Source of the DNA: Coleofasciculus sp. B1-GNL1-01
GTDB lineage: Bacteria > Cyanobacteriota > Cyanobacteriia > Cyanobacteriales > Coleofasciculaceae
DNA length: 57,697 bases
Direction: 5' to 3' (one strand)
NCBI GenBank assembly: GCA_040220235.1
Contig: JAVJTO010000085.1
Numbering within the stretch: the stretch's first letter is position 1; the number at the start of each line of letters is the position of its first letter. Both the position numbers and the translations under genes were made by a program. Under the pieces are notes generated by a model, which was not told the origin of the DNA, searched no databases, and worked only from the letters and a program-made list of their open reading frames with translations. Shown here piece after piece: positions 4,113 through 57,697 of this stretch.

Positions 4113-5249
4113 ATGGATTTTTTGTCCGATTTCTTTACGCTATTCCTGGGGAAGTTGCAGTCCCCGACACTTGGCTTTCTGATTGGTGGTATGGTCGTTG
4201 CCGCCCTCAATAGCCGACTGGCAATTCCCGATGCGATCTATAAATTCATCGTCTTCATGCTGCTCATCAAAGTCGGTCTGAGCGGCGGCATTGCGATCCG
4301 CAATGCCAATCTGGCGCAGATGCTGTTGCCCGCAGTGTTCGCTGTGATCACGGGAATGCTTATCGTGTTCATCGGGCGCTACACGTTAGCCAAGCTGCCG
4401 GGCGTCAAAGTCGTGGACGCCATTGCAACAGCGGGTTTGTTCGGTGCTGTGAGTGGCTCTACCCTCGCCGCTGGCATAACGGTACTGGAATCAGAAGGTA
4501 TAACATACGAACCCTGGGCAGCCGCACTCTATCCCTTCATGGACATTCCAGCGCTCGTGACTGCGATCGTCGTAGCCAGCGTTTATGTCAGCAAGCAAAA
4601 GTCTCTCAAAAATCAGGAGTCTCTCAGCAAGGAGGAGTCTCTCAGCAAGGAGCCGGTTGCCGCAGGCGAGTATCCCACCACTAGGCAGGAGTATCGCAAC
4701 CAGCAGCGCATTACCGCACAGGGGTATCCCAGCCAGGAACCCGAGCGGGTCAAAATATGGCCCATCGTGCAGGAAAGCCTCCAGGGTTCTGCCCTGTCGG
4801 CACTGCTGCTCGGCATCGCTCTAGGCATACTAACCCAGCCGGAAAGTGTCTATGAGAGCTTCTTCGATCCCCTCTTCCGTGGTCTGCTTTCAATACTGAT
4901 GCTGGTAATGGGTATGGAGGCTACGGCAAGGCTTGGCGAGCTACGCAAGGTGGGTCAGTGGTACGCCCTATATGCCTTTGTGGCGCCGCTTCTGCATGGG
5001 TTCATAGCCTTCGGTCTCGGTATGATTGCCCACTACGCCACGGGATTCAGCGCTGGCGGCGTCGTGCTTCTGGCTGTCATCGCCGCCTCCAGTTCAGACA
5101 TCTCAGGACCGCCCACTTTACGCGCCGGTATCCCGTCAGCCAATCCCTCCGCCTACATCGGCTCGTCCACAGCCGTAGGCACGCCGATTGCGCTTGCCGT
5201 GGGAATACCGCTCTTCATTGGACTCGCACAGGCGGTGATGGGCGGCTGA
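4113..5249 (+). CDS. sbtA: sodium-dependent bicarbonate transporter SbtA
   Basis: MDFLSDF..LQSPTLGFLIGG start, GAVSGST and SSSDISGPPTLRAGIPSANPSAY motifs; AAGGAGG RBS. Confidence 0.95.
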   Translation: MDFLSDFFTLFLGKLQSPTLGFLIGGMVVAALNSRLAIPDAIYKFIVFMLLIKVGLSGGIAIRNANLAQMLLPAVFAVITGMLIVFIGRYTLAKLPGVKVVDAIATAGLFGAVSGSTLAAGITVLESEGITYEPWAAALYPFMDIPALVTAIVVASVYVSKQKSLKNQESLSKEESLSKEPVAAGEYPTTRQEYRNQQRITAQGYPSQEPERVKIWPIVQESLQGSALSALLLGIALGILTQPESVYESFFDPLFRGLLSILMLVMGMEATARLGELRKVGQWYALYAFVAPLLHGFIAFGLGMIAHYATGFSAGGVVLLAVIAASSSDISGPPTLRAGIPSANPSAYIGSSTAVGTPIALAVGIPLFIGLAQAVMGG

Positions 5250-5913
5250 TCCCAGACGGGTCGCGGTCTGCCGATGCTCCCCTTGCCCGGTGACAAACGC
5301 GGCGGCTATGTCAAGGTCTGCGTCGTCTCCATTAAACGCACCCCACTCAGAATCTTCGATTTGAGTGGGGATTCTTATGCTTGTCACTGGCGTTCGCAGC
5401 GTGTGGGAGGAACTTTTGCCTGCCCACACTAAGCGTAATTTTACTATTTGTTAATAGGGCGTACCAATACCGTGCGCCGATGTTGTAGGAAGCGGACAAG
5501 TCAGCATTGTAAGTAGGTGGATATATTAACGTGAATGGTGAAGATTGTCATTCGTCATTTGTCATTCGTCATTTGTCATACTCGCTCCCTTGAGAAGCAA
5601 GCTACGTTTATGTAAGGGTTTGAGGCTTGTTTACAAAACTTAGTATAGTGCTGTTTTCTTTTGTCCGACCACTTATGTCTCTGGCAGGATTGATGAATTT
5701 TCTAGCTTTTAAACTGAGTTAAAAACTCTAATGACTCACGCCTCTCTTTTCCTGCTTCTTATTCCCCAATCTTAACCGTAAACTTTAATGTTGGATGATC
5801 AACCCAGATTGAGTATCAACAGTCGCCTTGAAAATTGTTCCTCCCAAAGATAGATGAAAGCGCGTCCAACTCCTCCATTACAGTAGAACAATACTGCCTA
5901 TTTTTATACACCC

Positions 5914-7425
5914 ATGACTTTGATTGCTGGAAAACCTGCTTCATTTTGGATTGATTCAACGCCAACGTCTACATTTTCTCCTTTTATCAACAACCTGGTT
6001 GTCGATGTAGCGATTGTTGGTGCCGGAATCGCGGGACTGACCGCTGCGACTCTGTTAAAGCGTGCGGGTAAAACCGTTGCGGTGATTGAGTCGAAACGAG
6101 TTGCCACGGGAGTGAGTGGTCATACAACGGCAAAGATAACATCGCTGCACAAGTTAATCTATGCCGATCTTATTCAGCAATTGGGAGAAGACAAAGCCCG
6201 CCTTTATGGAGAGTCCAATCAGGCGGCAATTGAGCAGGTGGCTCAACTGGTTAAAGAGGAGCAGATTGATTGTGATTTTAGCCGTCAAAGTGCCTACACC
6301 TTTGCCAATTCTCCAGAACAGTTGAGTCAAATTGAAGCTGAAGTAGAAGCGGCGATCAAATTAGGACTTCCTGCCTCTTTTGTCAAAGAGACATCACTCC
6401 CCTTTCCCATTGCCGGAGCGGTTAAATTTGAAAATCAAGCCCAGTTTCACGCCCGGAAATATTTGCTGCATCTAGCGAAAACCATTCCCGGTAATGGCAG
6501 CTATTTGTTTGATGATACGCGAGTAGAAACCGTTGATGAAGATAGCCCTTGTCAAGTTCAAACAACCCGGGGGGTACTCAAAGCCAAAGATGTAATTGTC
6601 ACCACAAATGTACCCATTCTGGATCAAGGGCTGTTTTTTGCTAAAACCTATCCGAAACGTTCTTATATTGTCGCCGCTTCGATTGATCCAGCCAAAGCAC
6701 CCGATGGTATGTTTATTAGCGTCGGTGAACATTATCGATCGCTGCGGACAACGCCCTACAATGACGGTGTACTCTTACTGATTGGTGGTGAAAGTCATAA
6801 AACGGGTACAGTTACCCAGACAGAGGAACGATATCTGCGCTTAGAAGACTATGGTCGCACCCAGTTTGGCATCGATAAGTTCGAGTATCGCTGGTCAACC
6901 CAGGATATGGTATCCTTCGACAAGTTACCCTACATTGGTAAATTAACCCCAGTTAACAATCATATTTATGTCGCCACGGGATTTAGTCTCTGGGGTATGA
7001 CCAAGAGTACCCTATCGGGGATGATTCTATCTGACTTGATTTTAGGACGATCCAATCCCTGGGCGGATCTGTATGACGCCACTCGCGCCACTCCGTTTAT
7101 CTCGGAAACCTCGATTAAAGAGAATCTGGACGTGGGTAAGCATTGGATTGGCGATCGCTTGAAGGGGTTAGATGAGTCCTCTTTCGCTGATGTTAGCAAA
7201 GGGGAAGGGAAACTGCTCACCATTGATGGAAACAAAGTCGCCGCGTATCGAGATGAAAAGGGTTCAATTCATGCGGTTTCCGCCGTTTGTCCTCACTTAG
7301 GCTGTATCGTCGATTGGAATAGCGCTGAGAAGAGTTGGGATTGTCCCTGTCATGGTTCCCGCTTTAGTTGTGATGGACAAATTCTCCAAGCACCAGCGGT
7401 TAAGGAGATGGAACGGATTAAATAA
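5914..7425 (+). CDS. FAD-dependent oxidoreductase with C-terminal Rieske [2Fe-2S] domain (YhfW-like)
   Basis: GAGIAG Rossmann motif; CPHLGC ... WDCPCHGSRF Rieske motifs. Confidence 0.9.
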   Translation: MTLIAGKPASFWIDSTPTSTFSPFINNLVVDVAIVGAGIAGLTAATLLKRAGKTVAVIESKRVATGVSGHTTAKITSLHKLIYADLIQQLGEDKARLYGESNQAAIEQVAQLVKEEQIDCDFSRQSAYTFANSPEQLSQIEAEVEAAIKLGLPASFVKETSLPFPIAGAVKFENQAQFHARKYLLHLAKTIPGNGSYLFDDTRVETVDEDSPCQVQTTRGVLKAKDVIVTTNVPILDQGLFFAKTYPKRSYIVAASIDPAKAPDGMFISVGEHYRSLRTTPYNDGVLLLIGGESHKTGTVTQTEERYLRLEDYGRTQFGIDKFEYRWSTQDMVSFDKLPYIGKLTPVNNHIYVATGFSLWGMTKSTLSGMILSDLILGRSNPWADLYDATRATPFISETSIKENLDVGKHWIGDRLKGLDESSFADVSKGEGKLLTIDGNKVAAYRDEKGSIHAVSAVCPHLGCIVDWNSAEKSWDCPCHGSRFSCDGQILQAPAVKEMERIK

Positions 7426-39349: not shown

Positions 39350-39755
39350 AAATAACAAAAGCCCCAGAGAAAAAATCTCTAGGACTGAACCAGGGTGCAT
39401 CTACCATTTCTTTCTTCTTATCCCTATGAACCTGATCCGGAAAAGTCGTCTAAAAATAACAAAAGCCCCAGAGAAAAAATCTCTAGGACTGAACCAGGGT
39501 GCATCTACCATTTCTTTCTTCTTATCTCTATGAACCTGATCCGGAAAAGCCGTATAAAAATAACAAAAGCCCCAGAGAAAAAATCTCTAGGACTGAACCA
39601 GGGTGCATCTACCATTTCTTTCTTCTTATCTCTATGAACCTAATCCGGAAAAGTCGTCTAAAAATAACAAAAGCCCCAGAGAAAAAATCTCTAGGACTGA
39701 ACCAGGGTGCATCTACCATTTCTTTCTTCTTATCCCTATGAACCTGATCCGGAAA
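39350..39755 (+). repeat. 104-bp tandem repeat, about 3.9 near-identical copies, directly upstream of cobM
   Basis: same unit recurs at 39353, 39457, 39561 and 39665 (period 104). Confidence 0.95.
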
Positions 39756-39760
39756 TTTAT

Positions 39761-40615
39761 ATGTATCAAAGTTCTGACTCTACTCAACTTCAAAACCCTC
39801 TCCCTTCCCTAGCCCCAGCCGTCTACATTATTGGTGCTGGACCTGGAGATCCGGAGTTACTAACCGTTAAAGCGTTGAAAATGCTGCAAAAAGCAGATGT
39901 TATTTTATTTGCCGACTCCTTAGTGCCACCACAAATTTTGCAGGAAACCCGTCCGGATGCAGAAATTATCAGAACTGGGAATAAAACCCTAGAAGACATC
40001 TTACCCCTGATGATTGAACGAGTGCGATCGCAAAAATCGGTAGTTCGTCTGCATTCGGGTGATCTAAGTCTATACAGCGCCATTCACGAGCAAATGCAAG
40101 CCCTTACCGAGGCGGAAATTCCCTTTGAAGTGATTCCTGGCATTAGTGCTTACCAAGCGGCGGCAGCTAAACTAGGCGTTGAACTCACCGTGCCGGACGT
40201 GGTACAAACCATTATCCTGACGCGCATTAGTGGTCGAGCCTCAGCCGTACCTGAGTCGGAAGAATTAGCATCCCTAGCCGCGCATCAAGCCAGTCTTTGT
40301 CTTTACCTAAGCGCTCGTCATATAGACGCCGCCCAAGCCAAACTGATGCAACATTATCCAGCAAATACCCCGGTTGCTGTCTGTTTTCGGATCAGTTGGT
40401 CAGATGAAAAAATGTGGCTTGTCCCTCTAGAGCAAATGGCAGCACTCACTCACCAGGAAAATCTAATTCGGACAACACTTTATATTATTAGTCCCGCCTT
40501 AAAAACACCCTGGTCTTTACCTGAAACAATATCTAGCCAAGATACCAAAGTAGGAACACGTTCCCGCCTTTACCATCCGGAACACTCCCACCTATTTCGC
40601 CGCGAGGGGAGATAG
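39761..40615 (+). CDS. cobM: precorrin-4 C11-methyltransferase
   Basis: IIGAGPGDPELLT, RLHSGD, PGISAY, SRLYHPEHSHLFR; ATG 39761 lies just after the repeat array. Confidence 0.92.
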   Translation: MYQSSDSTQLQNPLPSLAPAVYIIGAGPGDPELLTVKALKMLQKADVILFADSLVPPQILQETRPDAEIIRTGNKTLEDILPLMIERVRSQKSVVRLHSGDLSLYSAIHEQMQALTEAEIPFEVIPGISAYQAAAAKLGVELTVPDVVQTIILTRISGRASAVPESEELASLAAHQASLCLYLSARHIDAAQAKLMQHYPANTPVAVCFRISWSDEKMWLVPLEQMAALTHQENLIRTTLYIISPALKTPWSLPETISSQDTKVGTRSRLYHPEHSHLFRREGR

Positions 40616-40753
40616 GGGAGCTGGGGGAGCTGGGGAAGCTGGGGGAGCTGGGGAAGCTGGGGAAGCTGGGGAAGCTGGGGAAGCTGGGGGAGCTGGGGAA
40701 GCTGGGGAAGCTGGGGAAGCTGGGGGAGCTGGGGGAGCTGGGGAAGCTGGGGG
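40615..40753 (+). repeat. 9-bp G-rich tandem repeat GGGG(A/G)AGCT, about 15 copies
   Basis: direct reading; related short runs at about 3458-3484 and 16877-16912. Confidence 0.95.
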
Positions 40754-47749: not shown

Positions 47750-48028
47750 TCGGGGAATCTCATGCTTTGTCTTTTGTCCTTCTTAGATTCAGGATTCCCG
47801 TTTTTTTGGCGAAACTCACAACATCGGAAATGTTTGGGCTGAAGGGGTGACAAGCTAAGTCAACGGTAGGCAGGGTTTGGGGTTTGGGGTATGGGGGTGC
47901 GGAAGTGCAAAGTTCATTTATCGGTGGGGAGGGCGGGTTTTGTTGTTCCGTTATTGGTGGATATTTGAATTGAGTCCCTAAACCCGCCCCTACAATTGTC
48001 CCTAAACCCGCCCCTACAAAAATACTTG

Positions 48029-49153
48029 TTATCTGTCATTGTTCAAGATGGCACGGCGGGCTAATTTGGTGTAAGTTTTGACGGTTTGGTAACGCATATC
48101 CAGATCATCTGCGATCGCGTTTAAGGATTCACCCATTTCTCGTCGGGCTAATATAGTCGCCCAGGTTTCGGCGATGTCTTGCGCCCGATTTCCTCCCTGG
48201 CGCTGGCGTTGGGCGAGAAACTGTTGGGTTAATTCGCTGATGCGTTCGGCTAATAGGGTTTCTATTGAGGGGAGGGCGGGGGTTTCGGGGGATAACCAGC
48301 CTAAGCGAGTTTGTCCTAAACCAAAGGGGGTTTTGTGTCCGGTGCCGCAGTAGGGGGCAAATTGGGCTAAGGTATGGAATAGTTGGCTAAATTCTGGGTG
48401 TTGGCTGGCACCTGAATCCAGTCCGAGGGCGATCGCACCTGTGAATCCGGTGACGACTCCTTTCTTTCCGGCTGCGACTTTCATCGATTCTAAACGGTGA
48501 CGCTGAATCACCACGTTTTCCTCTACCCAGTCTAAAAAGGCGGTTTGGTTAAAGGGGTGATCAGAAAAATCATTCCAGCGCCGCAAATAGCTGTGGAAGA
48601 GATTCGTGGGAACCGGTAAAGGAAAATGGTGTCCCTTGCGGCGAAAGCTGGTGGGGGTGAGGAAGCTGAGGCTTAGGGATTGGGGTAGGGTGGGGATTGG
48701 GGTGGATAAGTTCGGATACGTGGTTGGTGCTAAAGCGATGTGCCAACGGCTAATTTTGAGGACAGCACGACGTAATTTAATCATATCTGGCAGGTGATCA
48801 ACCCATTCGGCTAGCCATTGGCTTAGGGGTTGGTAAAGGGCGGTGATGTACCAACGGTAGGTTGTATTGGGTTTGAGTTTGAGGTTTTTTCCAGAGGTGA
48901 GGAAGTCTCCGTCTAAGCGGGAGAGGGTGAAGGGTTTCTCAGATTGACCATCATGGAGATAGGCGGAGAGTTCGGGGTTAGTTTGGCGAACTTGATCTAA
49001 GAACCAGGCGTGAAGTCCGACGGTGTATTGAGTATAGAGGGAGTCTGGGGCGTTGGCGGTTAATTCTAAGACAAGTCCGACTAATTCTGTATCCGCCGCC
49101 CAGGGATGGCGGGATGGAGGGGGTTGGGTTTGGCGGCGTTTGCGGGGTGCCAT
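48029..49153 (-). CDS. cas6: CRISPR-associated endoribonuclease Cas6 with C-terminal HTH extension
   Basis: GLHAWFL, LHD..EKPFTLS, FLTPTSFR, GFTG, Gly-rich loop GTGHKTPFGLG. Confidence 0.92.
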   Translation of the reverse strand: MAPRKRRQTQPPPSRHPWAADTELVGLVLELTANAPDSLYTQYTVGLHAWFLDQVRQTNPELSAYLHDGQSEKPFTLSRLDGDFLTSGKNLKLKPNTTYRWYITALYQPLSQWLAEWVDHLPDMIKLRRAVLKISRWHIALAPTTYPNLSTPIPTLPQSLSLSFLTPTSFRRKGHHFPLPVPTNLFHSYLRRWNDFSDHPFNQTAFLDWVEENVVIQRHRLESMKVAAGKKGVVTGFTGAIALGLDSGASQHPEFSQLFHTLAQFAPYCGTGHKTPFGLGQTRLGWLSPETPALPSIETLLAERISELTQQFLAQRQRQGGNRAQDIAETWATILARREMGESLNAIADDLDMRYQTVKTYTKLARRAILNNDR

Positions 49154-49382
49154 GATGGGGTGAATGCCGGATTTTTAAGGGGTTGCTCCTATATATATAG
49201 GGTAAACTGAGTTGTCTCAAACCTGTTTCATTAACTTCCCTGGCGAATTCAGCTCGGTTAAATGACGAGTAGCACTGTCTTCGAGCAATTGACGGATGAA
49301 GTTTGGATGTTGTGAGTTAATTAAATGTAACAACTCTCGATACAACCGACAAGCCGATGAGCCAATGAGGTTAGATCTAAAA

Positions 49383-49418
49383 GTTTCCATCCCCTTTCGG
49401 GGAAGTGAGTTTGTCAAG
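49383..49418 (-). CRISPR. single CRISPR repeat (probably the last repeat of an interrupted array): CTTGACAAACTCACTTCCCCGAAAGGGGATGGAAAC
   Basis: 36 nt, CCCC-GAAA-GGGG hairpin, 3' GAAAC end typical of cyanobacterial repeats; 229 bp upstream of co-oriented cas6; only one copy, so the 5' boundary is approximate. Confidence 0.75.
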
Positions 49419-49432
49419 GCTGCAACCTTAGT

Positions 49433-49506
49433 TGTCACTTGAACCATATCCTGTCCAAAGTGGAAGCATAAGCTGTCCCCAAACCTGTGGTCAATTTATG
49501 CTTCCA
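49433..49506. repeat. tniQ-proximal transposon end: 46-bp TIR (49433-49478) with two putative TnsB sites, plus an oppositely oriented site at 49489-49506
   Basis: TGTCACTTGAACCATATCCTGTCCAAAGTGGAAGCATAAGCTGTCC; GGTCAATTTATGCTTCCA. Confidence 0.85.
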
Positions 49507-49587
49507 GTGAGTAGGAGAGGTTAACTTGACTTGAACTGGAAACAAGTAGCTACCTGGAGAGAGACTTGGCAAATAACCTGATTAGAC

Positions 49588-50832
49588 CTAGGACTTTTTG
49601 ATTGTTTGTCGGTATAACCTGTAACGAGCCGAAATTTGGTGACACAAGTCAGGGAAAAATCGGGAAATATCTCCAGGATCATATCCAATAGTAGCAGCCA
49701 CTTGTTTGAGAGACTGCGGTGGTTCCAAGGACAAAGCTGCCTCTAAGAACATTTGTACTTTCACCCCATCAAAGCGCCGATTAGTTTTTCTGCGTTGTTG
49801 AGTGACAGGCAAAACCTTCAACGATAGGGGTTGATGTTTCATCACCTGTCCAGTGAGAACATCTTCTAAAGGAATAGAAAGACACCAACAGACTCTAAGG
49901 AGCAAACCTAATTGTGCCAGTGCCTGACCACATCGCCATTCTCCTGGTACGGAAGCACTCAGGTAGATTAACTCAGCAAAAGCTTTGGCATTACCGTTGG
50001 TAGCTTCTTGGATACATAAGTCAATGGCTAATGCGAGATTTCTGAAGGGTGGAGGAGACTGGAGAGCAGGTGCAAGCTCGATAATTTTTCCCACGGAGTA
50101 CACAACAAAAATCTGCCAGTCCCAATCGGGTTGCTCTACTGGGGAAGCGTCCACAGAGGTATCGCCATTCGTCAAAATTGAATTCACACCCAACCACTGT
50201 TGGCATCTAGAGCAGAAACCCGGTCGGGAATTCCACTCTAGAGGGTAGAGCAATCGCTGACAATGAGGACATTGATGCCATAAAACTTGTTGATGAAAAG
50301 GACAAGTTGTCACTACCTGGAGCGACCATAATAGAGGCTCGTAGATGGGTTTCCCACAACGCTCCCAATCGTCATAGCAGACGGGACACCAAGCCTTATT
50401 GGTACGCAGTAAACCTCGCGACGGTAAAACGTTAGCCCAACTTAACAAAGTCAGAAACCGTAACTGATGTTGCTTTGTTCGTGCTTCTAACACATGAACT
50501 GGCTCAGATGCCATAATTCCCATGCCATTCCAGGCTCCCGTATCGTTGAAGAAGACACGGAAAAACCATCGGGATAAACCTTGATGCTGATTGCCTTGAT
50601 ATCGACTGACTTGTGGAGCTACTTCTTGAGCTAACAAAATGCCCGTAGGCACCCGATGAGCTGCTGCTAACCGAGCCACATAACTGGTCAGACTTTCTAC
50701 CATAGGTGTTCCTACACCAATGGGTTCAAGAGGATGCAAGCGGCTGCGCTCTGGGATTGTTGTGGTTTTTGAATACCATAGTTGATGATTACTCCAGCTT
50801 TCAACTGACACTTGGAGCACCTCCGATGACAT
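49588..50832 (-). CDS. tniQ: TniQ/TnsD target-selector protein (414 aa)
   Basis: ESLTSYVARLA, WCPVC, CPFH, CPHC, CSRC zinc motifs, C-terminal HTH; start could be GTG near 50811. Confidence 0.9.
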   Translation of the reverse strand: MSSEVLQVSVESWSNHQLWYSKTTTIPERSRLHPLEPIGVGTPMVESLTSYVARLAAAHRVPTGILLAQEVAPQVSRYQGNQHQGLSRWFFRVFFNDTGAWNGMGIMASEPVHVLEARTKQHQLRFLTLLSWANVLPSRGLLRTNKAWCPVCYDDWERCGKPIYEPLLWSLQVVTTCPFHQQVLWHQCPHCQRLLYPLEWNSRPGFCSRCQQWLGVNSILTNGDTSVDASPVEQPDWDWQIFVVYSVGKIIELAPALQSPPPFRNLALAIDLCIQEATNGNAKAFAELIYLSASVPGEWRCGQALAQLGLLLRVCWCLSIPLEDVLTGQVMKHQPLSLKVLPVTQQRRKTNRRFDGVKVQMFLEAALSLEPPQSLKQVAATIGYDPGDISRFFPDLCHQISARYRLYRQTIKKS

Positions 50833-51994
50833 CCCGTTGAGGATTACGCTCTCCTGGACGACGTTTCTTGGTTTTCTTCTCTTTTTTGTTACCCGTAGAA
50901 CGGGTCGAGCTATTGAGCAAAGCTTCTGTTGCTGTTGATGGCTCCTTCACGGTTAATCCCAATTTTTGACGCAATCGACCCAGTTCGCTCTCCGATTCTA
51001 GTAGCGCTTTCTCGCCTTCTATCGCCTCAGTTGCCATCTGCATACATTTAGACACACTGGGAGCATAAGGTGTAAGATGTGCCAAGCTAAGAGTAGAGGC
51101 GGATTCTGCCAATGCTTTTCTCAAGGCTTGTGTCAGCCAATTCTTAACTATCCCTACACAACCGATACTGCGTTCATAGAAGTATTCCCAATGCTGCTCT
51201 AAATCAGGGGTTTCTAACAAGGGCATTTGGCAGGCAAAACTCTTGAGTACCCGTTTGAAATCTTTAACGTCCTGTGAGCAATCCGCTTGATAACGAGGAA
51301 AGTGAATATCTAGGCTGCGACGGCTCAATTGACCGCTTAAGTTCCTTAACTGTAGCAGTTCATAAGTACCAAAAAGTCCATGCCGGGTGGACGTGAAACT
51401 TGCCATTGACTGAATGGCATCCATTTGGTCTTGTTGTCTTCTTCCCGATGCCATTTTAGTGAAGCGCTGGGCTTCATCAACTAGAAATACAATTAATCTC
51501 CGTTGTTGAATAATCGCCGCTACATCTTCTCGTAAATCTGACAGGTTAGCTTTTGATTTAATTAGACGTTGAGAAGAGCCACTACCCTCAATTCGGCTAC
51601 TGCCAGTTCTGAGTTTATAATCAACGAAGGGGTCAGCCAAAGCTATCAAGACACTTTTGTAATAGTCTTTCCAGTCAAAAGACCCGGATTCAGGAGCGCG
51701 AGCTTCTACATAAGCAACAGGGATATGTCCACAATCAAGTTGTATGGCTCTGGAGTTCTGCTCTATGAGCACTTTCACAACTTGATGGAGTAAGGTTGTT
51801 TTCCCCACCCCAGTAGGGCCAAACAAAAAGATTAATGAAGCGCCTCCAGGATTATTGACGGCATCTATTACAGCTTCATACGCAATTTTTAGTCGCCTGT
51901 GTACTACCGTACAACTTTCAAAGTAAGCCAGTTTTTCTGCTGGATTGACGGCTAAAAGTTCTGGAGGAAAATTCTGGGAAGACGGCATTACCAA
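50801..51994 (-). CDS. tnsC: TnsC AAA+ ATPase
   Basis: Walker A GPTGVGKTT, Walker B FLVDEAQ, LFGTYEL, GQLSRR, SIGCVG. Confidence 0.92.
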   Translation of the reverse strand: MVMPSSQNFPPELLAVNPAEKLAYFESCTVVHRRLKIAYEAVIDAVNNPGGASLIFLFGPTGVGKTTLLHQVVKVLIEQNSRAIQLDCGHIPVAYVEARAPESGSFDWKDYYKSVLIALADPFVDYKLRTGSSRIEGSGSSQRLIKSKANLSDLREDVAAIIQQRRLIVFLVDEAQRFTKMASGRRQQDQMDAIQSMASFTSTRHGLFGTYELLQLRNLSGQLSRRSLDIHFPRYQADCSQDVKDFKRVLKSFACQMPLLETPDLEQHWEYFYERSIGCVGIVKNWLTQALRKALAESASTLSLAHLTPYAPSVSKCMQMATEAIEGEKALLESESELGRLRQKLGLTVKEPSTATEALLNSSTRSTGNKKEKKTKKRRPGERNPQRDVIGGAPSVS

Positions 51995-54684
51995 AACTCC
52001 TCATAAGGTTCAATTTCTTCCGAGTCAATCTCATCTCTATTAGGAGAGACTTCTTGACTTATAGGAAGTGAAAGGCACTCGGCGGCTGGAGGCTGTTCTT
52101 GAAGTCGCGAAATTTTTCCTCCATCAATTATTGCTAAAACCTCTTTGGCTTCTACATCCCGTAACCGTTGCTCTAAGATAACTTCTTGGGCTTCTGTACT
52201 TGCTAAAAATTCAGCTAGGGCTTTGGCTGTGATTGTAAATTGTTTGGAGTAATTCTTCTGCTGTTGACGCAACTGTTCACTAGCTACCATTATTTCTCGC
52301 TCTGAGTGACCCACTAAGCGGCTATAGTGCTGCGAGATGCAACTTACCCACTGACCTTTAATGTAAGCATAGGCAATCCCAGCATCATAGGGGTCATAGC
52401 GCACATTTACTTGGGTTTTTTCAATTTCCGGATTTCGGAAACTATTATGCCAATAGTAGATGTGGTTAATTTTGACTCCCTGATTGGGAATTACTTTGGC
52501 AGTTCCTTTGGGGGTCGTTGGTAGGGTCAAAATCCGGAAAGTTTCATCATAAGGAATCAGTTTGTGTGAGCGGAATCCGGTTTGCAACAAGCCATCTTCA
52601 AACGCCGCTCTTGGGCTTTGTCCTAGTGCCGGATGCTCCTTGTTGTCATAAAATTTATAAGCCCAATCGCATAGATTCTGATATAAACTTCCTAGAGTCC
52701 AGATGGCTAAATTACGAGGATTAACGCTTTTCGTCACAGCCCGATAATTCCTGTTAATTTGCGTATTTCCCCAGAGATTGTGAATGAACATGGTATTGGC
52801 TGTGCCGAACAAGCGCTCGCATACTGAACCAAATCGGGGTTTGGCGGCTGGTCGGGTTTTCTTTGTGCAAGAGTAAGCTGCCAGGAGCCGCTCGAAGTAA
52901 ACACTCATGAATTCTTTGGCTCCATCCACCACTATCGTGTCGGGCAATCGTCCATGACGATGGACACACTCGCGCATCACCATCATGCAACTACGATACG
53001 ACGGTGGGTCAAAGCACAGATAAACGGCTAGTATTCGTCGTGAGTAGGCGTCTGTTAGGAAGGTAGCCCAAGGGCGACCCAGATTGATTGATGTGTGGGA
53101 GCTAACTAACTCGATATCTAATTGTGTATGGTCAATATGGCAGATTTCAAAGGGTCGTTGTCCATGCCTGGGGGTGTTTACCTCTAGTTCCCAATAAAAA
53201 GGTTCGTGCTTGTAAGCGGCTCGGCGTCCTTGCCTGTTTACAGCCTGTTCGTAGTTAGATTTTTGCTGAATTTTTCGGACAAACGTTTTGTAGCTACAAG
53301 GAGTGATTCCCTGCTGAGAGCAGGCTCGTACCAGTGAACTATAAACGGCAAATTTTCCTTGTTGTTTGAGATTTAAATAGCTGTTATCAATGAATTCGTC
53401 TACGATTTTTTGTGTCGTTTGAGGCAATTTAGGTTGGTGGTTGCCTTTAGAGCTGACGCGGGGCAACAAGCCCACATAACCGCATCCATATTGCTCAACT
53501 GCGTTTCGCCACGAGCGCAACCAACGGCGAATTGTACGTGCTGAAACGACCTGATTTGAGGTTTGGAGTTCGCCCGTTAGGTAGGGAGAAATGATGGAAT
53601 AGCGGCGGTTGGCTTCTACACAATCATCAACACTCGCCTTGGCAAGGAGGTCATTGACTTCTCTAGAAGATGGGGATTGGATGACAACACCTGTTAACTC
53701 CCCCTGTTTTACTAATTCCAATAGGGCTTCGTTGGGCAGTTGGATGACTTTTGCCTCTTCATTGAGTAGGGCTGTATGGGTTTCTCCTCGATTGAGAATC
53801 GATAAGCTTTTTCCATTCCATACCACAGAAGAACCGGGTTTTAGATCAACTAAGTTGCGGGCTAATTCTAAGGTTGATTTTCCTCTCAACTTGGTTGTTT
53901 CGATTCGACAAGCTTTCTGATTAACCGGAAAGATTGGAATCTGTGTACCAAGTTGCGCTATGTTGACACCCCGCCAATTCACATTTAAATAATTTTGGGC
54001 AATTAGGGTATAAACCTCCTCACAGTTGTACCCCTCTTCTAGCAATTCACCTAAGGTAATTCCTGGATGAAGTTCCACCCGTGATATGATCTCGGCACAA
54101 ACTTTCTCTTCTACAGAAACCTGGGATGGGTGCAAGTAGTCTTCGAGAAAATGAAGATTATTTTGGAAAACCCAGTCAATTTCAGCGTTGCAACGGATGC
54201 GATAATATAATCCCAAACTTTGTGCTACTTCAACTCCTGGGGGACAGTGCCATTGACCTTCACCTTCTCGCACGTAACGAGCAGGCATTTTGACTGATAG
54301 TCGCACTAATTCATCCAGTGTTTTCCACTCTTCCCAACCAGCACAAGTCTGACGCAACACAAAGAAATCTGGGGTATGCAGGACTCCTACTTTCCGACCA
54401 CTCAGAGCAATGTAGCTCAGTTTGATGCCACTGGGTTGGTCGTAATATTCCAGTACATCTGGGTCATATTCCATCTCATAGATGCCTGCCAATTCGTTGT
54501 GGTGGCTCTCAAACTGAATCGTTACGCCCATTTTCCGGCTGGGGTAACGACCACTCACGTTCCCTGCCCTACTGCGTACCACACGCGACGGCGGCGAACT
54601 GCGTAACAGTTCGATGTATTTCCTTGTCGGTTCTGCCAAGCCTAACTGCTGACACCACCGCACAAACTGCTCGCCGTCCAGCAT
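51988..54684 (-). CDS. tnsAB: TnsA-TnsB fusion transposase
   Basis: N-terminal TnsA endonuclease (QFESHHNEL, YYDQP, HTPDFF, EEWK); C-terminal DDE integrase (HIDHT, VVDGAKEF, CERLFGT). Confidence 0.92.
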   Translation of the reverse strand: MLDGEQFVRWCQQLGLAEPTRKYIELLRSSPPSRVVRSRAGNVSGRYPSRKMGVTIQFESHHNELAGIYEMEYDPDVLEYYDQPSGIKLSYIALSGRKVGVLHTPDFFVLRQTCAGWEEWKTLDELVRLSVKMPARYVREGEGQWHCPPGVEVAQSLGLYYRIRCNAEIDWVFQNNLHFLEDYLHPSQVSVEEKVCAEIISRVELHPGITLGELLEEGYNCEEVYTLIAQNYLNVNWRGVNIAQLGTQIPIFPVNQKACRIETTKLRGKSTLELARNLVDLKPGSSVVWNGKSLSILNRGETHTALLNEEAKVIQLPNEALLELVKQGELTGVVIQSPSSREVNDLLAKASVDDCVEANRRYSIISPYLTGELQTSNQVVSARTIRRWLRSWRNAVEQYGCGYVGLLPRVSSKGNHQPKLPQTTQKIVDEFIDNSYLNLKQQGKFAVYSSLVRACSQQGITPCSYKTFVRKIQQKSNYEQAVNRQGRRAAYKHEPFYWELEVNTPRHGQRPFEICHIDHTQLDIELVSSHTSINLGRPWATFLTDAYSRRILAVYLCFDPPSYRSCMMVMRECVHRHGRLPDTIVVDGAKEFMSVYFERLLAAYSCTKKTRPAAKPRFGSVCERLFGTANTMFIHNLWGNTQINRNYRAVTKSVNPRNLAIWTLGSLYQNLCDWAYKFYDNKEHPALGQSPRAAFEDGLLQTGFRSHKLIPYDETFRILTLPTTPKGTAKVIPNQGVKINHIYYWHNSFRNPEIEKTQVNVRYDPYDAGIAYAYIKGQWVSCISQHYSRLVGHSEREIMVASEQLRQQQKNYSKQFTITAKALAEFLASTEAQEVILEQRLRDVEAKEVLAIIDGGKISRLQEQPPAAECLSLPISQEVSPNRDEIDSEEIEPYEEFW

Positions 54685-54737
54685 ATATTCCTTTGCCTAC
54701 GCAGCCATGAAATGATGTCTTCAGTTTATCAACAAAA

Positions 54738-54890
54738 GGACATCTTATCCTTCCAATTTCAACTTGTGGACAACTTATGGTTCTACCTAGCTGTTCAAGT
54801 ACCTGTTCTCCCGACGACAGCATCAGAGTTTTTACCTTGTTGGCGGACAGCTTATGCTTCCACTTTGGACAGGATATGGTTCAAGTGACA
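54738..54890. repeat. tnsAB-proximal transposon end: four putative TnsB sites (54738-54755, 54768-54785, 54845-54862, 54867-54884); TIR 54845-54890
   Basis: GGACATCTTATCCTTCCA, GGACAACTTATGGTTCTA, GGACAGCTTATGCTTCCA, GGACAGGATATGGTTCAA. Confidence 0.85.
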
Positions 54891-54982
54891 CAATCAATTG
54901 CCCATTCCCCATCTGCCAAGTGCTTCTCAAATTGCACCCGCCAAGTTTTCCCGCGCCAATCCTTAATCTCCAATTCCTTCAT
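54891..54982 (-). pseudogene. 5' fragment of a gene translationally coupled to the M23 gene and cut by the transposon end
   Basis: ATGA overlap at 54979-54982; reads MKELEIKDWRGKTWRVQFEKHLADGEWAID into the TIR, then stops. Confidence 0.55.
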
Positions 54983-56277
54983 GGCTGCTCACCTGTCAGA
55001 AACCATTGCAGCCAGCCACTTCTGACTCTCAACCAATTGCCAGAACTAGACGACTTAATCCGTAAGTCCAAATGTGGTCCCGTTGAGCCGCCACTGTTCC
55101 CTGTCCAGGCGATCGCTCTTTTTCTGTTGACTTTAATCTTTTGCCCCGGTTCAACTAAACACCGGGACAAGTGCAGCAGTTTAAACTGGAGTGTGGGGAA
55201 TTGCTCAGACGTGAATGTGGCATACAAGCCAGCCGCGTCACCTCTGGCACATTCGACCCAACCGTCAGCGATCGCATACAAAGCCGTCCCCGCTGGCGTG
55301 GCTAAGTCAACCCCTTGGTGATATTGACGCTTCCCTGAGATGGGGTGAATCCTCCACCCACGCGGCGATGTAACTTTATAGCCTGCGATGATGTCTCCCA
55401 GTTGAGGATTTTTCTGGAATTTAACATCCCATTTATAAATATGAGACTTGTTGATCTGATCTGGTGTTTTTTCTAGAGACTTACCGGAAAGGAGTGCGAT
55501 CGCTCTCCCTCGATGCTCCCTTGTCATCCGCTCAACGGCGCTATCTAAGGTATGATACCCGTCGCTGATACTTCCTTTGGCGTTGGGATGTCCAGCAAAT
55601 ACAGTAGAGTAAAGCTGTTTAAGTCCACCACCTTTAAACCCACGTTTAACCAAGTATCGCTCAACATAATCCATCTGCTCAACCTGGCTTTTATGGGCTA
55701 AGGCTTCTGATGTGGTTCCCAGTTCAGCCGCCGTGGAGGACATAAATTGAATAAGCCCGACGGCGCGTCCCCTACCTTTAACAACGGGACCTCTAATACT
55801 GGGGCTAAATGTTCCAGCAGTTTCAAAACTAATCAGTGTGGCTAAGTCAATGGGGTCAGCGTTGATATTAGCCGCGACTTGTTTGATTTTCTGTGCAAAT
55901 GGGGTTAGGTGTAGAGACGTTGCATGCAACGTCTCTACAGGTTTAGCTGAATCGGATTCCGGTTTGGATTCCGGTTGAATCGCTGTTTCCTGGACTTGTT
56001 CTACACCATCTTTAAACCAATCAAAATTGGGACTATAGTCTTGACTGTTTGCCAGGTTGAAACTGATTAATGCAGTGGCTGCGATCGCTAATATCTGATT
56101 CCTCAATCTAGATTTTTCTAGAGATTTAGGGGAATCATCGATCGCTCGTAATAACTGACTGACTCGGCGGTCAATTTTCCAGAGGTTCGTTCTCTTGAGG
56201 GTTGCTAGTTCCTGCTCCAGCTTCCGAATTTCCCTCTGTAGCTGGTTGGTGCTTAGGGTTTGTGTTGCTTGTGTCAT
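54979..56277 (-). CDS. cell-wall hydrolase: lysozyme-like domain plus M23 peptidase
   Basis: LISFETAGTF..AVGLIQF..QMDYV lysozyme-like motif; HQGVD and GPHLD M23 zinc motifs; N-terminal coiled coil and TM. Confidence 0.85.
   Translation of the reverse strand: MTQATQTLSTNQLQREIRKLEQELATLKRTNLWKIDRRVSQLLRAIDDSPKSLEKSRLRNQILAIAATALISFNLANSQDYSPNFDWFKDGVEQVQETAIQPESKPESDSAKPVETLHATSLHLTPFAQKIKQVAANINADPIDLATLISFETAGTFSPSIRGPVVKGRGRAVGLIQFMSSTAAELGTTSEALAHKSQVEQMDYVERYLVKRGFKGGGLKQLYSTVFAGHPNAKGSISDGYHTLDSAVERMTREHRGRAIALLSGKSLEKTPDQINKSHIYKWDVKFQKNPQLGDIIAGYKVTSPRGWRIHPISGKRQYHQGVDLATPAGTALYAIADGWVECARGDAAGLYATFTSEQFPTLQFKLLHLSRCLVEPGQKIKVNRKRAIAWTGNSGGSTGPHLDLRIKSSSSGNWLRVRSGWLQWFLTGEQP
55910..55939. 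repeat. perfect 30-bp REP-like palindrome inside the coding sequence
   Basis: TGTAGAGACGTTGCATGCAACGTCTCTACA (encodes VETLHATSL). Confidence 0.9.
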
Positions 56278-56464
56278 TGGTTAGTAGATGCCAGGTGAGT
56301 AAAAGCAAGCTAATCGCTAAGATGAGTAATGCGAAGCGCTGAAGTTTTATTCGTCGCACTTCCCGCTGGAGCGATCGCAAGTGCTGAAGTAATGCCCTAC
56401 GGCTGGGTTGTGTCTCTCCCTGATTTTTTCTCGTTACAAACTTCTTGAATGGTTTGAGTTCCAT
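56171..56464 (-). CDS. small hypothetical single-TM protein overlapping the hydrolase gene start
   Basis: ATG 56464; basic N-terminus followed by FALLILAISLLLLTW. Confidence 0.45.
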   Translation of the reverse strand: MELKPFKKFVTRKNQGETQPSRRALLQHLRSLQREVRRIKLQRFALLILAISLLLLTWHLLTNDTSNTNPKHQPATEGNSEAGAGTSNPQENEPLEN

Positions 56465-56738
56465 AACAAAAAAGGCAAAAAAGGCAACAGGCAACAGGCA
56501 ACAGTTCCTACTTTCTGATGGGTTGCTGTTGGGAGTATTTGGGTAGGGAGTAGGAGGAAGGAAGGAAGGAAGAAACCAAGCGTGTTTTCCATATCGCTGA
56601 TTGGTGCCAGCTTTTTACCTATCCTGGCTTTATGAGTGCCACGCTATGTCTCGTTTAAACCTCCTCTCATCCTTTAAACCCTAATGGCAACCGCTATATC
56701 TGTTGCCTGTTGCCTGTTCCCTGTTGCCTCCTGCTTTC

Positions 56739-57697
56739 TTACAGTTCCTGGGCTAAAGTAATTGTTTGGGCGATTACGTTGGCTAAATCAGGATGTTCCA
56801 CAACATAGCGATCGCTCCCTCTCAAACTGAGGATTAAGTCTCGTCCAAAGCGGAACGCGCCACCGCCCCCAACGATTGAGGTTTCTATCTCCGGAGGTGT
56901 ACAGTCGGTGATGATTTCGGCAATCTCGCCAATGTACCATTCATGGGCGGTATCAATTGCATCGGCGATGGGGATGGGTTCGGGTTCCCCCTGGGGCTGA
57001 TAATAGTCCTCACAGTTATTTACAGCGGTGATAAACTGGGGGTCTTCTGGGTCATTAATCCCGGCTTCTTCTGCGACCCATTCATAATATAAGGATGTGC
57101 CTTTGCCATCAAAGGACTGACTGCGGTTATCGTCAAAGAATCCATCAGGGTCAATAAAATCGCACAACAGGGTACGATAGCCGATATCGTAGCAGGCTTG
57201 CCAGGAATCATTGGGTTTAGATTCTGCGATCGCTAACTGACGATAAGCCCCAATGTGATAGCCTTCTGGCACTACCTGTAATGTCTGAATCGTGGCTGAT
57301 TTGCGTCCTTGCGGCGTAGACCAAGTGAGGGACTGGCTTAGGGCTTTCTTGGCGGCTGTCTCCTGTGCTTTGAAGTTTCCTGGGGTGAAGAATAGGCTCA
57401 GGCTGAGATGGATGTCCTCACCGTTTCCTAATCCCAGTTGCTCGAGTGCTAGAATAACTCGCAGCTTGAGATTGTCGGTTTTATCCCCGTGCAGTCCGGA
57501 CTGGCTGGTGAGTGTGGCTCCTTTGCGATCGCTGGTGTAGGTTTTACCGCGATAGGTGATTTCTATGTTCCCTTTAACGGTTGAGTTTCGGGTTCTTACT
57601 CGTGATTTGCCACGGGGTATCTCGGTGAGATAGTTGAGCGTGCGCTGGATGGCGAGGGCGGGTTGATCCACGATTTCCCCTAGTAAAGCGACTTTTT
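56739..57697 (-). CDS. ParM/StbA-like actin-fold ATPase (5' end beyond the window)
   Basis: VVPEG, DIGYRT, VGGGGA, DLANV actin-fold motifs; frame stays open to the window edge (KVALLGEIV...). Confidence 0.7.
   Translation of the reverse strand, partial: KVALLGEIVDQPALAIQRTLNYLTEIPRGKSRVRTRNSTVKGNIEITYRGKTYTSDRKGATLTSQSGLHGDKTDNLKLRVILALEQLGLGNGEDIHLSLSLFFTPGNFKAQETAAKKALSQSLTWSTPQGRKSATIQTLQVVPEGYHIGAYRQLAIAESKPNDSWQACYDIGYRTLLCDFIDPDGFFDDNRSQSFDGKGTSLYYEWVAEEAGINDPEDPQFITAVNNCEDYYQPQGEPEPIPIADAIDTAHEWYIGEIAEIITDCTPPEIETSIVGGGGAFRFGRDLILSLRGSDRYVVEHPDLANVIAQTITLAQEL

What the first reader, a model, noticed from the sequence alone, without database searches (positions are those of the whole stretch)
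49383..54890. Minimal Tn7-like transposon inserted in the spacer next to a CRISPR repeat (CRISPR-array-targeting element)
Seen: a 36-nt CRISPR-type repeat (49383-49418), 14 bp of unique sequence, then the TGT end of a 5,458-bp element encoding only TnsAB, TnsC and a single 414-aa TniQ/TnsD. There are no cas genes, array or cargo inside the ends, and cas6 lies outside. Known: cyanobacterial TnsAB-fusion Tn7-like elements usually use TnsD-like proteins to target tRNA genes or co-opt Cascade. From memory, a cyanobacterial family with shortened TnsD that inserts at a fixed position in CRISPR spacers was reported by Chacon Machado and Peters; this citation should be verified. Inference: this element uses the CRISPR repeat itself as its attachment site, recognised by protein rather than guide RNA, so it parasitises the host immune locus.
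Basis: partly seen in the sequence, partly recalled or inferred. Interest (0 to 1): 0.9.

Follow-up and report, generated by a model that had tools for sequence, protein, structure and literature searches.

The report
Known CRISPR-repeat-targeting Tn7-like transposon
A small jumping gene from an already published cyanobacterial family that homes to CRISPR repeats sits beside the last surviving repeat of a decayed CRISPR locus; the kind is known, but here the rest of the immune locus has been lost on the element's other side.

Summary
A 5,458-bp element (49433-54890) has 52-nt terminal inverted repeats and carries only tnsAB, tnsC and one tniQ/tnsD. Its tniQ-side (left) end lies 14 nt from a 36-nt CRISPR repeat, and cas6 is outside. 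The recalled citation is real (Chacon Machado & Peters, Mob DNA 2025, PMC11837452). The window's TnsD is 90% identical to that paper's founding protein. The paper's Supplemental Table 1 already lists a 5,458-bp element whose printed 400 nt equal the window's right end, with target "CRISPR repeat". So this is already known.

The distance from the left end to the repeat's GAAAC is 45 nt, inside the family's 43-48 range.

- The repeat is solitary in this genome. A same-genus relative has 11 repeats plus a type III cas operon at the orthologous site, and seven of those genes have no hit here.
- There is no target-site duplication. The right end abuts a truncated unrelated gene, so the copy has hybrid flanks from a transposon-linked rearrangement.
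- A second copy sits in a protein-coding gene with a perfect 5-bp duplication and no GAAAC motif, while more than 20 suitable repeats elsewhere in the genome are unoccupied.

Interest is low to moderate.

The parts
49383..49418 (-). Solitary 36-nt type III-style CRISPR repeat. The crRNA sense is the minus strand (CTTGAC...GGGGATGGAAAC). It is the presumed attachment site.
   Evidence: Unique in the window and the genome. Arrayed with 2 mismatches at the orthologous locus of G423. Best Rfam match is CRISPR-DR18 on the minus strand, E=7.6e-4, below the gathering score. Folds as a hairpin, -10.6 kcal/mol, z=-2.1.
49419..49432 (.). 14-nt remnant of the spacer upstream (in crRNA sense) of the repeat. 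Its last 5 nt (TTAGT, 49428-49432) would be one copy of the target-site duplication.
   Evidence: The same 12-14-nt gap is seen in the pMIC7113.03 copies and in L020.
49433..54890 (-). Complete 5,458-bp array-targeting Tn7-like element with no cargo.
   Evidence: Terminal inverted repeats. 93% identical over its full length to the L018 element and 90% to pMIC7113.03. Its right end matches letter for letter the 400 nt printed in row 7 of the paper's Supplemental Table 1.
49433..49587 (.). Left end (tniQ-proximal, 155 nt) with three TnsB-site-like 18-mers at 49439-49456, 49461-49478 and 49489-49506. The last one is in the opposite orientation.
   Evidence: The paper's table gives a left-end length of 155.
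49588..50832 (-). tniQ/tnsD (414-aa ORF; 407 aa from the start used in the paper). It has the CCCH zinc finger and lacks the roughly 60-aa C-terminal extension of tRNA-linked relatives.
   Evidence: PF06527. C149, C152, C177 and H180 are invariant. 90% identical to AfTnsD, aligned end to end. tRNA-linked homologues run about 56-63 aa further, and one about 117 aa.
50801..51994 (-). tnsC AAA+ ATPase
   Evidence: AAA_22 E=2.4e-13 and TniB E=3.4e-6.
51988..54684 (-). Fused tnsAB transposase (898 aa)
   Evidence: TnsA_N, TnsA_C, rve and Mu-transpos_C domains in one ORF. The length equals the 898 aa given in the paper's table.
54685..54890 (.). Right end (206 nt) with four same-orientation TnsB-site-like 18-mers at 54738, 54768, 54845 and 54867.
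   Evidence: The paper's table gives a right-end length of 206.
54891..54982 (-). 5' 30 codons of a small gene (MKELEIKDWRGKTWRVQFEKHLADGEWAID...), cut exactly by the right terminus. This is the flank that does not belong to the original insertion.
   Evidence: The 88% paralogue on C127 continues uninterrupted for about 65 more codons. Homology stops at the base next to the transposon end. The 3' part is found nowhere else in the genome.
48029..49153 (-). cas6 (374 aa), the surviving cas gene of the decayed type III locus.
   Evidence: PF10040 and PF19308. 94-96% DNA identity to the same-genus genomes G402 and G423.
49217..49357 (-). 3' fragment of a roughly 190-aa gene that lies between cas6 and the array in relatives. 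The 76-aa ORF 49217-49447 is a chance fusion that reads from the transposon end through the repeat.
   Evidence: Homology to G402 ends at 49357 and to G423 at 49300. No Pfam match.

Best explanation
This is a copy of the published cyanobacterial array-targeting Tn7-like transposon, of the A. franciscana type.

How it inserts (inferred): TnsD recognises a DNA motif at the 3' end of a CRISPR repeat (GGGGATGGAAAC). With TnsC and the fused TnsAB transposase it places the element's left end a fixed 43-45 nt upstream of GAAAC. That puts the insertion in the adjacent spacer and leaves the repeat intact. The geometry is shown here by comparison. The protein-DNA recognition is inferred, as it is in the paper.

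Where it inserted: the target was an array of a type III locus (cas6, array, csx3-cas10-RAMP operon) like the one a same-genus relative still has.

What happened afterwards (inferred, about 0.6): the right side was exchanged. The right terminus is now joined, to the base, to the middle of an unrelated small gene. The most likely route is homologous recombination with a second, off-target copy of the same element. That removed the rest of the array.

Whether the same event also removed the seven missing type III genes is less certain (about 0.4).

The element is intact. A second copy inside a protein-coding gene shows it has been active recently and that it does not always use the repeat motif.
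For: Family identity:
- Fused TnsAB, TnsC and a single TniQ, with no cargo.
- TnsD is 90% identical to AfTnsD.
- 90.2% DNA identity to pMIC7113.03.
- 88% TnsD identity to NZ_DATNPA010000798, an accession named in the paper.
- The window's right end is identical to the 400 nt printed in Supplemental Table 1 row 7.
- The C-terminal extension of about 56-63 aa seen in tRNA-linked homologues is absent.

Junction geometry:
- GAAAC offsets are 45 (window), 45 and 44 (the two plasmid copies), 44 (L018, not in an array) and 43 (L020). G411:C1 has GAATC at 43.
- The paper's table gives 43-48.

Ancestral locus:
- G423 has 11 repeats, then csx3, cas10, RAMPs and a CARF gene.
- 7 of the 11 G423 proteins tested (csx3 to RAMP296) have no tblastn hit in this genome. 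Three distal ones lie on C18 at 88-96% identity.

Hybrid flanks:
- No target-site duplication.
- Paralogy to C127 ends exactly at the right terminus.
- The genome holds only four transposon flanks, and the other two (C68 and C125) pair by a perfect AGCCC duplication and rejoin one ORF.

Independent in-array context:
- A metagenome contig (run X2) carries an identical right end (0 mismatches over 324 nt), then 26 nt, then the same repeat in the same orientation.
Against: - No experiment shows that TnsD binds the repeat. The paper's E. coli assays gave no transposition.
- The second copy has no GAAAC in the 62 nt next to its left end.
- More than 20 repeats ending ATGGAAAC on C143 and C101 are unoccupied.
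- The window's right flank and its C127 paralogue do not show GAAAC at the expected offset either (read by eye). A former copy there would therefore also have been off-target.
- The pairing of the window's two flanks rests on a short-read-style assembly through a 5.4-kb two-copy repeat. Read depth could not be obtained because only contigs were on hand.
- The lone repeat is also truncated on its cas6 side. The locus has therefore decayed by more than one event, and not all of them need involve the transposon.
- The other breakpoint of the missing cas genes lies next to an IS at the end of contig C18.
Confidence: 0.85

Rival explanations
1. Assembly chimera. The genome really holds three copies, each with matching flanks, and the assembler threaded contig C85 through the repeat from one copy's left flank to another's right flank.
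For: The element is a 5.4-kb exact repeat. Two other contigs stop 139-140 nt inside its ends. Copy number could not be measured because only contigs were on hand.
Against: Three copies need six flanks and only four exist in the assembly. The array that would flank the right end is absent, since the repeat occurs once. The 3' part of the small gene is also absent. The genome scores 100% complete. The paper's table also records no target-site duplication for the identical element.
Confidence: 0.07
2. The element inserted beside an already solitary repeat in a locus that had decayed earlier. The loss of the array and cas genes has nothing to do with the transposon. Only the right junction reflects a later transposon-linked exchange.
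For: One motif is enough as a target. L018 sits at a non-array site that has AAAGGGGAAGGAAAC at the canonical offset. The repeat is also truncated on its cas6 side. An IS lies at the far breakpoint on C18.
Against: 14 nt of spacer-like sequence, not leader or trailer, separates the end from the repeat. The deletion endpoint on the array side coincides exactly with the transposon. The same element is seen inside intact arrays of this repeat in a metagenome.
Confidence: 0.25
3. Targeting is guided by host crRNA and Cas proteins, as in a CAST acting in trans, rather than by TnsD reading DNA.
For: The short TnsD lacks a DNA-binding region that is essential in its relatives, and the element fails in E. 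coli. The authors therefore suspect a host factor.
Against: There are no cas genes inside the ends. Non-array targets carry the same DNA motif at the same offset. No spacer of this genome's arrays matches the off-target sites at 16 nt or more. The seven type III effector-module genes next to the array in G423 have no hit in this genome.
Confidence: 0.05
4. Chance adjacency. An untargeted insertion happened to land next to a lone repeat.
For: The second copy shows that untargeted insertion occurs.
Against: The repeat is unique in 8.66 Mb. The offset of 45 nt equals that of the founding element. The orientation also matches the family rule.
Confidence: 0.01

Closest known systems
Array-targeting Tn7-like transposons of cyanobacteria (Chacon Machado & Peters, Mob DNA 2025;16:5, PMC11837452); founding copies on A. 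franciscana PCC 7113 plasmid pMIC7113.03 (NC_019740.1)
   Same: Fused TnsAB, TnsC, a single short TnsD with the CCCH finger, no cargo, the same 8-bp termini (AAGTGACA), left end 45 nt from GAAAC, insertion in the spacer upstream of an intact repeat, and the same orientation. TnsD is 90% identical and the DNA 90%. An identical element is listed in the paper's Supplemental Table 1, row 7.
   Different: The genes here are full length, whereas the plasmid copies have truncated tnsAB and tnsC. Here there is only one repeat, no target-site duplication and a right flank that does not belong to the original insertion. The table leaves the duplication, adjacent cas genes and distance blank for this row. 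The second, motif-less copy is not in the table as far as I searched it (rows returned by my term look-ups; not read in full).
tRNA-targeting TnsD Tn7-like elements and I-D/I-B2 CASTs of cyanobacteria (as described in PMC11837452)
   Same: TnsD about 40% identical. The left end faces the target, and a GAAAC-type motif is shared between tRNA 3' ends and repeats according to the paper. Three of four such homologues in the family sample have a tRNA-Thr or tRNA-Val gene 340-420 nt downstream.
   Different: Their TnsD runs about 56-63 aa further (one about 117 aa). According to the paper they carry cargo and usually a second TniQ. No tRNA gene lies near the window element.
Prototypic Tn7 TnsD/attTn7 (glmS) pathway (textbook knowledge, as summarised in PMC11837452)
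   Same: A sequence-specific TniQ-family protein binds a conserved site and directs insertion at a fixed distance outside it, with a 5-bp duplication.
   Different: Different attachment site. According to the paper the motif faces the left end. TnsA and TnsB are fused. There is no TnsE pathway.
Phage PhiAP1.1 integration into CRISPR repeats (cited in the Discussion of PMC11837452; that paper itself not read)
   Same: A mobile element that uses CRISPR repeats as its integration site.
   Different: The phage interrupts the repeat by site-specific recombination. This transposon spares the repeat.

Membership tests
Array-targeting Tn7-like transposons (PMC11837452) | Fused TnsA-TnsB transposase | tested here: met
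   One 898-aa ORF holds TnsA_N, TnsA_C, rve and Mu-transpos_C. Same length as in the paper's table.
Array-targeting Tn7-like transposons (PMC11837452) | [quoted passage not shown] | tested here: met
   AAA_22/TniB and PF06527. C149, C152, C177 and H180 are invariant in 4 of 4 aligned proteins. There is one PF06527 match in the whole genome assembly.
Array-targeting Tn7-like transposons (PMC11837452) | TnsD belongs to the AfTnsD clade (the paper gives about 50-90% identity) | tested here: met
   367/407 (90%) identical and aligned end to end. In 31 family genomes, homologues fall into 86-100% and 42% or lower, with nothing between. No tree was built.
Array-targeting Tn7-like transposons (PMC11837452) | TnsD lacks the roughly 60-aa C-terminal region of tRNA-targeting relatives | tested here: met
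   Four homologues of 38-42% identity extend 56-63 aa (three) or about 117 aa (one) beyond the window protein's C-terminus. Three of them are the ones with a downstream tRNA gene.
Array-targeting Tn7-like transposons (PMC11837452) | Minimal element with no cargo | tested here: met
   The three genes fill 49588-54684. The ends are 155 and 206 nt.
Array-targeting Tn7-like transposons (PMC11837452) | Left end 43-48 nt from a conserved GAAAC in a CRISPR repeat; insertion in the upstream spacer; repeat intact | tested here: met
   Offset 45 with the repeat intact. Family range from the paper's table.
Array-targeting Tn7-like transposons (PMC11837452) | Same orientation relative to the array's transcription | tested here: met
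   The leader-like AT-rich sequence lies at the far end of the G423 array. The leader motif AGTTCGCTCAGGA follows the repeat in metagenome contigs. The best Rfam match is on the minus strand. The element therefore lies upstream of the repeat, as in the paper. Array orientation is inferred, not measured.
Array-targeting Tn7-like transposons (PMC11837452) | Sits inside an array, with repeats on both sides (18 of 22 in the paper; not obligatory) | tested here: not met
   There is one repeat in the window and the genome. The right flank is a truncated gene.
Array-targeting Tn7-like transposons (PMC11837452) | 5-bp target-site duplication | tested here: not met
   Window copy: TTAGT against CAATC. 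Second copy: perfect AGCCC. The paper's table records degraded or undetected duplications in many rows.
Array-targeting Tn7-like transposons (PMC11837452) | TnsD-dependent transposition into repeat-bearing DNA | not testable with these tools
   Not shown for any member. The E. coli mating-out assays in the paper were negative.
CRISPR-associated transposons (CAST I-B, I-D, I-F, V-K) | cas effector genes and a CRISPR array inside the transposon ends | tested here: not met
   Only tnsAB, tnsC and tniQ lie between the ends. No repeat lies inside.
tRNA-targeting TnsD Tn7-like elements | Left end next to the 3' end of a tRNA gene | tested here: not met
   ARAGORN finds no tRNA in L069 (window 48091-52332), whereas three 40%-identity homologues have one downstream.

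The most novel reading that the evidence does not exclude
Array-targeting Tn7-like elements are not always harmless residents of CRISPR arrays. This copy has one canonical junction at a repeat and one junction inside an unrelated gene. At least 10 repeats are gone compared with a same-genus relative, and seven type III genes (csx3, cas10, RAMPs, CARF) have no hit in this genome. The reading is that recombination between a targeted copy and an off-target copy of the element deleted the host's immune module. On this view the family can erase CRISPR loci as well as ride in them, and it makes motif-independent insertions into genes.
Probability: 0.35. Interest if true: 0.45.

Novelty: already known. 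Interest (0 to 1): 0.25.

Why it matters
The family matters because it is a Tn7-like lineage that turned the host's CRISPR repeats into its attachment site, and that result is already in print.

This copy adds detail on three points:
- It is a full-length, apparently intact member, unlike the truncated founding plasmid copies. That makes it a better candidate for reconstitution in a cyanobacterial host.
- It documents an off-target insertion with a perfect duplication and no GAAAC motif. This bears on how strict TnsD targeting is.
- It is a case where the array and cas genes next to the element are gone. The authors suspect that these elements do little harm to the CRISPR system.

Tried and rejected
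- Metagenome scan with a four-protein TnsD alignment: 31 loci, all only 25-39% identical, so no new close family members. Not followed up.
- Sequencing runs: all 22 listed runs are kept as contigs, so copy number from read depth could not be obtained. Uncovered bins mean nothing.
- RNA guidance: blastn-short of the off-target flanks and the C127 uninterrupted site against the genome found no match of 16 nt or more inside any of this genome's arrays.
- Linking the missing cas genes to the window: the surviving distal genes are on C18, which ends in a multi-copy IS. C85's right end is paralogous to C127 up to both contig ends. No physical link could be made.
- Shared spacers with G423, to reconstruct an empty site: none. 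The 14-nt remnant matches no G423 spacer (by eye).
- A motif at the putative former target in the small gene: the C127 paralogue has GGAGATTGAGAG where GGGGATGGAAAC would be (8 of 12, read by eye) and no GAAAC. This is too weak to use.
- In-register comparison of the two copies' flanks: no similarity.
- The search of earlier findings returned nothing for this place.
- A second literature search for later work on array-targeting Tn7-like elements (2025 onward) found only the same paper.

Full report
**The observation.**
- A 36-nt repeat lies at 49383-49418, followed by 14 nt and then a TGT terminus at 49433.
- The matching ACA terminus is at 54890.
- The terminal inverted repeats are 52 nt long and 96% complementary, and the element is 5,458 bp.
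- Three minus-strand genes fill the interior. One is an 898-aa fused TnsA-TnsB (TnsA_N, TnsA_C, rve, Mu-transpos_C). One is a 397-aa AAA+ TnsC. One is a 414-aa TniQ (PF06527, E=1.6e-19).
- The ends carry 18-mers that look like TnsB sites. Four lie in one orientation at the right end. Two lie inverted, plus one reversed, at the left end.
- cas6 (48029-49153) lies outside the ends.

**Is the 36-mer a CRISPR repeat?** Yes, but it is solitary here.
- It occurs once in the window and once in the 8.66-Mb genome at up to 3 mismatches.
- In a sample of 401 genomes of the phylum, 3 (this one included) hold it at up to 3 mismatches. One of them, G020, holds 11 copies in two regularly spaced arrays.
- In the same-genus genome G423, the DNA next to cas6 is 96% identical to the window. 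It is followed by 11 copies of a 2-mismatch version, separated by 33-43-nt spacers.
- Contigs of two metagenome runs also show the repeat with 35-36-nt spacers.
- Rfam's best match is CRISPR-DR18 on the minus strand (E=7.6e-4, below the gathering score). The minus-strand RNA folds into a short hairpin followed by UGGAAAC.
- An AT-rich, leader-like stretch lies at the far end of the G423 array. The sequence AGTTCGCTCAGGA follows the repeat in G423 and in metagenome contigs. Both place the leader to the right in window coordinates. The window's repeat therefore lies at the trailer, cas6-proximal side, and the element lies upstream of it in the crRNA sense.

[quoted passage not shown] I read the abstract, all of the Results and Discussion, and searched Supplemental Table 1.
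- The paper describes minimal cyanobacterial elements with fused TnsAB, TnsC and one TnsD. That TnsD keeps the CCCH finger but lacks about 60 C-terminal residues.
- The elements are inserted in one orientation in the spacer upstream of a repeat. A conserved motif lies 40-50 bp from the left end.
- The window's TnsD is 367/407 (90%) identical to the protein of the founding element on plasmid pMIC7113.03, aligned end to end.
- The element is 90.2% identical in DNA over 94% of its length to that plasmid copy. It is 93% identical over its full length to an element in Coleofasciculus sp. LEGE 07092 (L018).
- It is 88% identical in TnsD to NZ_DATNPA010000798, an accession the paper names.
- Row 7 of the paper's Supplemental Table 1 lists a 5,458-bp element with TnsAB 898 aa, right end 206 nt, left end 155 nt and predicted target "CRISPR repeat". 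Its printed first 400 nt are letter for letter the reverse complement of window 54491-54890. This element, or an identical copy, is therefore already catalogued. That row leaves the duplication, adjacent cas genes, distance and cargo blank.

**Family features tested here.**
- The four aligned TnsD proteins keep C149, C152, C177 and H180.
- In 31 genomes of the taxonomic family, TnsD homologues split into 86-100% identity (four genomes, this one included) and 42% or lower, with nothing between. The two same-genus genomes have none at E<=1e-20.
- Of four homologues at 41-42% identity, three have a tRNA-Thr or tRNA-Val gene 340-420 nt downstream. The fourth is cut by its contig end.
- The three tRNA-linked proteins run 56-63 residues beyond the window protein's C-terminus. 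A fifth homologue (38% identity) with no tRNA gene in its locus runs about 117 residues beyond.

**Junction geometry.** I read seven distinct left junctions. An eighth, L019, ends one base after the terminus and was dropped. Counting the nucleotides between the left terminus and GAAAC:

| Junction | Offset |
|---|---|
| Window | 45 |
| pMIC7113.03 copy 1 | 45 |
| pMIC7113.03 copy 2 | 44 |
| L018 (not in an array; the motif AAAGGGGAAGGAAAC lies at a gene's ribosome-binding site) | 44 |
| L020 | 43 |
| Chromosomal copy in G411 | GAATC at 43 |
| This genome's second copy | no GAAAC within 62 nt |

That is five exact matches, one near match and one miss. The paper's table gives 43-48 for the family and the same values for the shared entries. 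The two plasmid copies and L018 have perfect 5-bp duplications (ATAAA, CCTTC, CTATC). The plasmid copies have 30-31 nt of spacer on the right and 13 nt on the left.

- It has no duplication: TTAGT on the left and CAATC on the right.
- There is no repeat or spacer on the right. The right terminus abuts codon 31 of a small gene whose ATG overlaps the stop codon of an M23 peptidase gene.
- The whole right flank, to the contig end, is 86-89% paralogous to contig C127. There the small gene runs on uninterrupted for about 65 more codons. The paralogy stops at the base next to the transposon.
- The missing 3' part is found nowhere else in the assembly.
- The right flank is not found in the two same-genus genomes.

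**What the relative has on that side.** In G423 the array is followed by csx3, cas10 (799 aa), three RAMP genes, a small protein with no Pfam match, a CARF protein and further genes.
- By tblastn, the first seven of these have no hit in this genome at E<=1e-5.
- The next three lie on contig C18 at 88-96% identity. C18 then ends in a multi-copy IS.
- On the cas6 side the repeat is truncated too. A roughly 190-aa gene lies between cas6 and the array in G402 and G423, and only its 3' fragment survives here.
- The window therefore holds the last repeat of a decayed type III locus.

**A second copy.** Searching the genome with the element finds two contig ends that carry 140 and 139 nt of the left and right termini at 100% identity: C68:1-140 and C125:3903-4041.
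- Their flanks share a perfect AGCCC duplication. By my reading they rejoin into one continuous open reading frame.
- This copy sits in a protein-coding gene, with no repeat and no GAAAC motif nearby.
- The assembly holds only these four flanks. Since C68 and C125 pair with each other, the window's two flanks must belong to one copy.
- The genome also has arrays whose repeats end in ATGGAAAC. There are 21 such repeats on C143 and a few on C101. They are nearly identical to the repeat occupied in L020, and all are unoccupied.

**Mechanism.**
- Shown by comparison: the left junction is a canonical targeted insertion.
- Shown by the paralogue: the right junction is a joint made at the exact transposon terminus. 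It comes from a different event, because the would-be duplications differ.
- Inferred: a targeted copy in the array and an off-target copy in the small gene recombined, which deleted what lay between them. The second copy proves that off-target insertions happen in this genome.
- Whether that deletion also carried away the cas10 operon cannot be settled from contigs. An IS at the other breakpoint and the truncation on the cas6 side show that other events were involved.
- Recognition of the repeat DNA by TnsD remains an inference, here and in the paper. The paper's E. coli assays were negative and its authors suspect a host factor.
- Guidance by host crRNA is unlikely. Non-array targets keep the DNA motif at the same offset, no spacer matches the off-target sites, and the seven type III effector-module genes that flank the array in G423 have no hit here.

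**Independent context.** A 555-nt contig of a microbial-mat metagenome (run X2) matches the right end with no mismatch over 324 nt. It then continues with 26 other letters and then the same repeat in the same orientation. That is the in-array right junction that the window lacks, and it lies in a different spacer. So the same element has recently entered arrays of this repeat. In run X18 a short contig joins a transposon terminus to TTCCTGAGCGAACT followed by the start of a repeat. The two termini are 96% alike, so this is probably a left junction 14 nt upstream of the first repeat, inside the leader. [quoted passage not shown]

**Verdict.** The family is published, and this element, or an identical one, is in the paper's table, so it is already known. 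What this analysis adds for the copy:
- the canonical 45-nt offset and the neighbouring cas6;
- the absence of an array and of a duplication, because the right flank belongs to another site;
- the loss of at least 10 repeats relative to a close relative, with seven type III genes not found in this genome;
- a second, motif-less copy inside a gene.

**Limits.**
- No read depth or long reads were available.
- Array orientation is inferred.
- No tree was built.
- The paper's figures could not be seen.
- Supplemental Table 1 was seen only through term searches.

Noticed in passing
G000:C68:1-140 and G000:C125:3903-4041 (loci L003, L004): A second copy of the element in the same genome. It is inserted in the 3' part of a protein-coding gene, with a perfect AGCCC duplication and no CRISPR repeat or GAAAC motif within 62 nt of the left end. 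Only its termini are assembled.
   Followed up: yes
window 47912-48019: A dispersed repeat of about 108 nt just downstream of cas6. It matches at 76-97% identity on well over 60 other contigs of the genome, often in tandem pairs, and looks like a MITE. TRF also reports a 24-nt unit at 47974-48019.
   Followed up: no
window 39350-39755: Tandem repeat of a 104-nt unit, 3.9 copies, 97% matches, overlapping the start of ORF 39707-40615. Next to it, GGGGAGCTG occurs 16 times at 40606-40753.
   Followed up: no
window 49217-49447 (minus strand): A 76-aa ORF that starts inside the transposon's left end. It reads through the 14-nt spacer remnant and the CRISPR repeat into the 3' fragment of a gene that is about 190 aa long in relatives. 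It is probably a chance fusion, and it has no Pfam match.
   Followed up: partly
window 54891-57697 and G000:C127:1-2609: The last 2.8 kb of the contig (small gene, M23 peptidase and two unannotated ORFs) has an 86-89% paralogue on the 8.9-kb contig C127, and both contigs stop at the same point. The segment is not found in the two same-genus genomes, so it may belong to a mobile or plasmid-like region.
   Followed up: partly
run X18, contig laid at window 54891: A transposon terminus joined to 14 nt of leader (TTCCTGAGCGAACT) and then the start of a repeat. This is probably an insertion just upstream of the first repeat of an array, a position the paper reports as never seen.
   Followed up: no
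L020 (DALYJE010000427.1) 1918-6577: A related 4,636-bp deleted element has only 12 nt between the transposon and a repeat on both sides, and no duplication (CTAGT against CGTCA). The interrupted spacer would be only 19-24 nt long, so this copy also looks rearranged. The paper's table calls the duplication of a like element "degraded".
   Followed up: partly
G000:C143:9901-13110: Two arrays (10 and 11 repeats) of the same repeat, each preceded by the same leader-end motif (cctcagcgaact), lie 1.8 kb apart. What lies between them was not examined.
   Followed up: no
G000:C18:30884-33919: Orphan distal genes of the type III operon (a 316-aa RAMP and two others, 88-96% identical to G423) are followed by small dispersed repeats and a multi-copy IS at the contig end.
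   Followed up: partly
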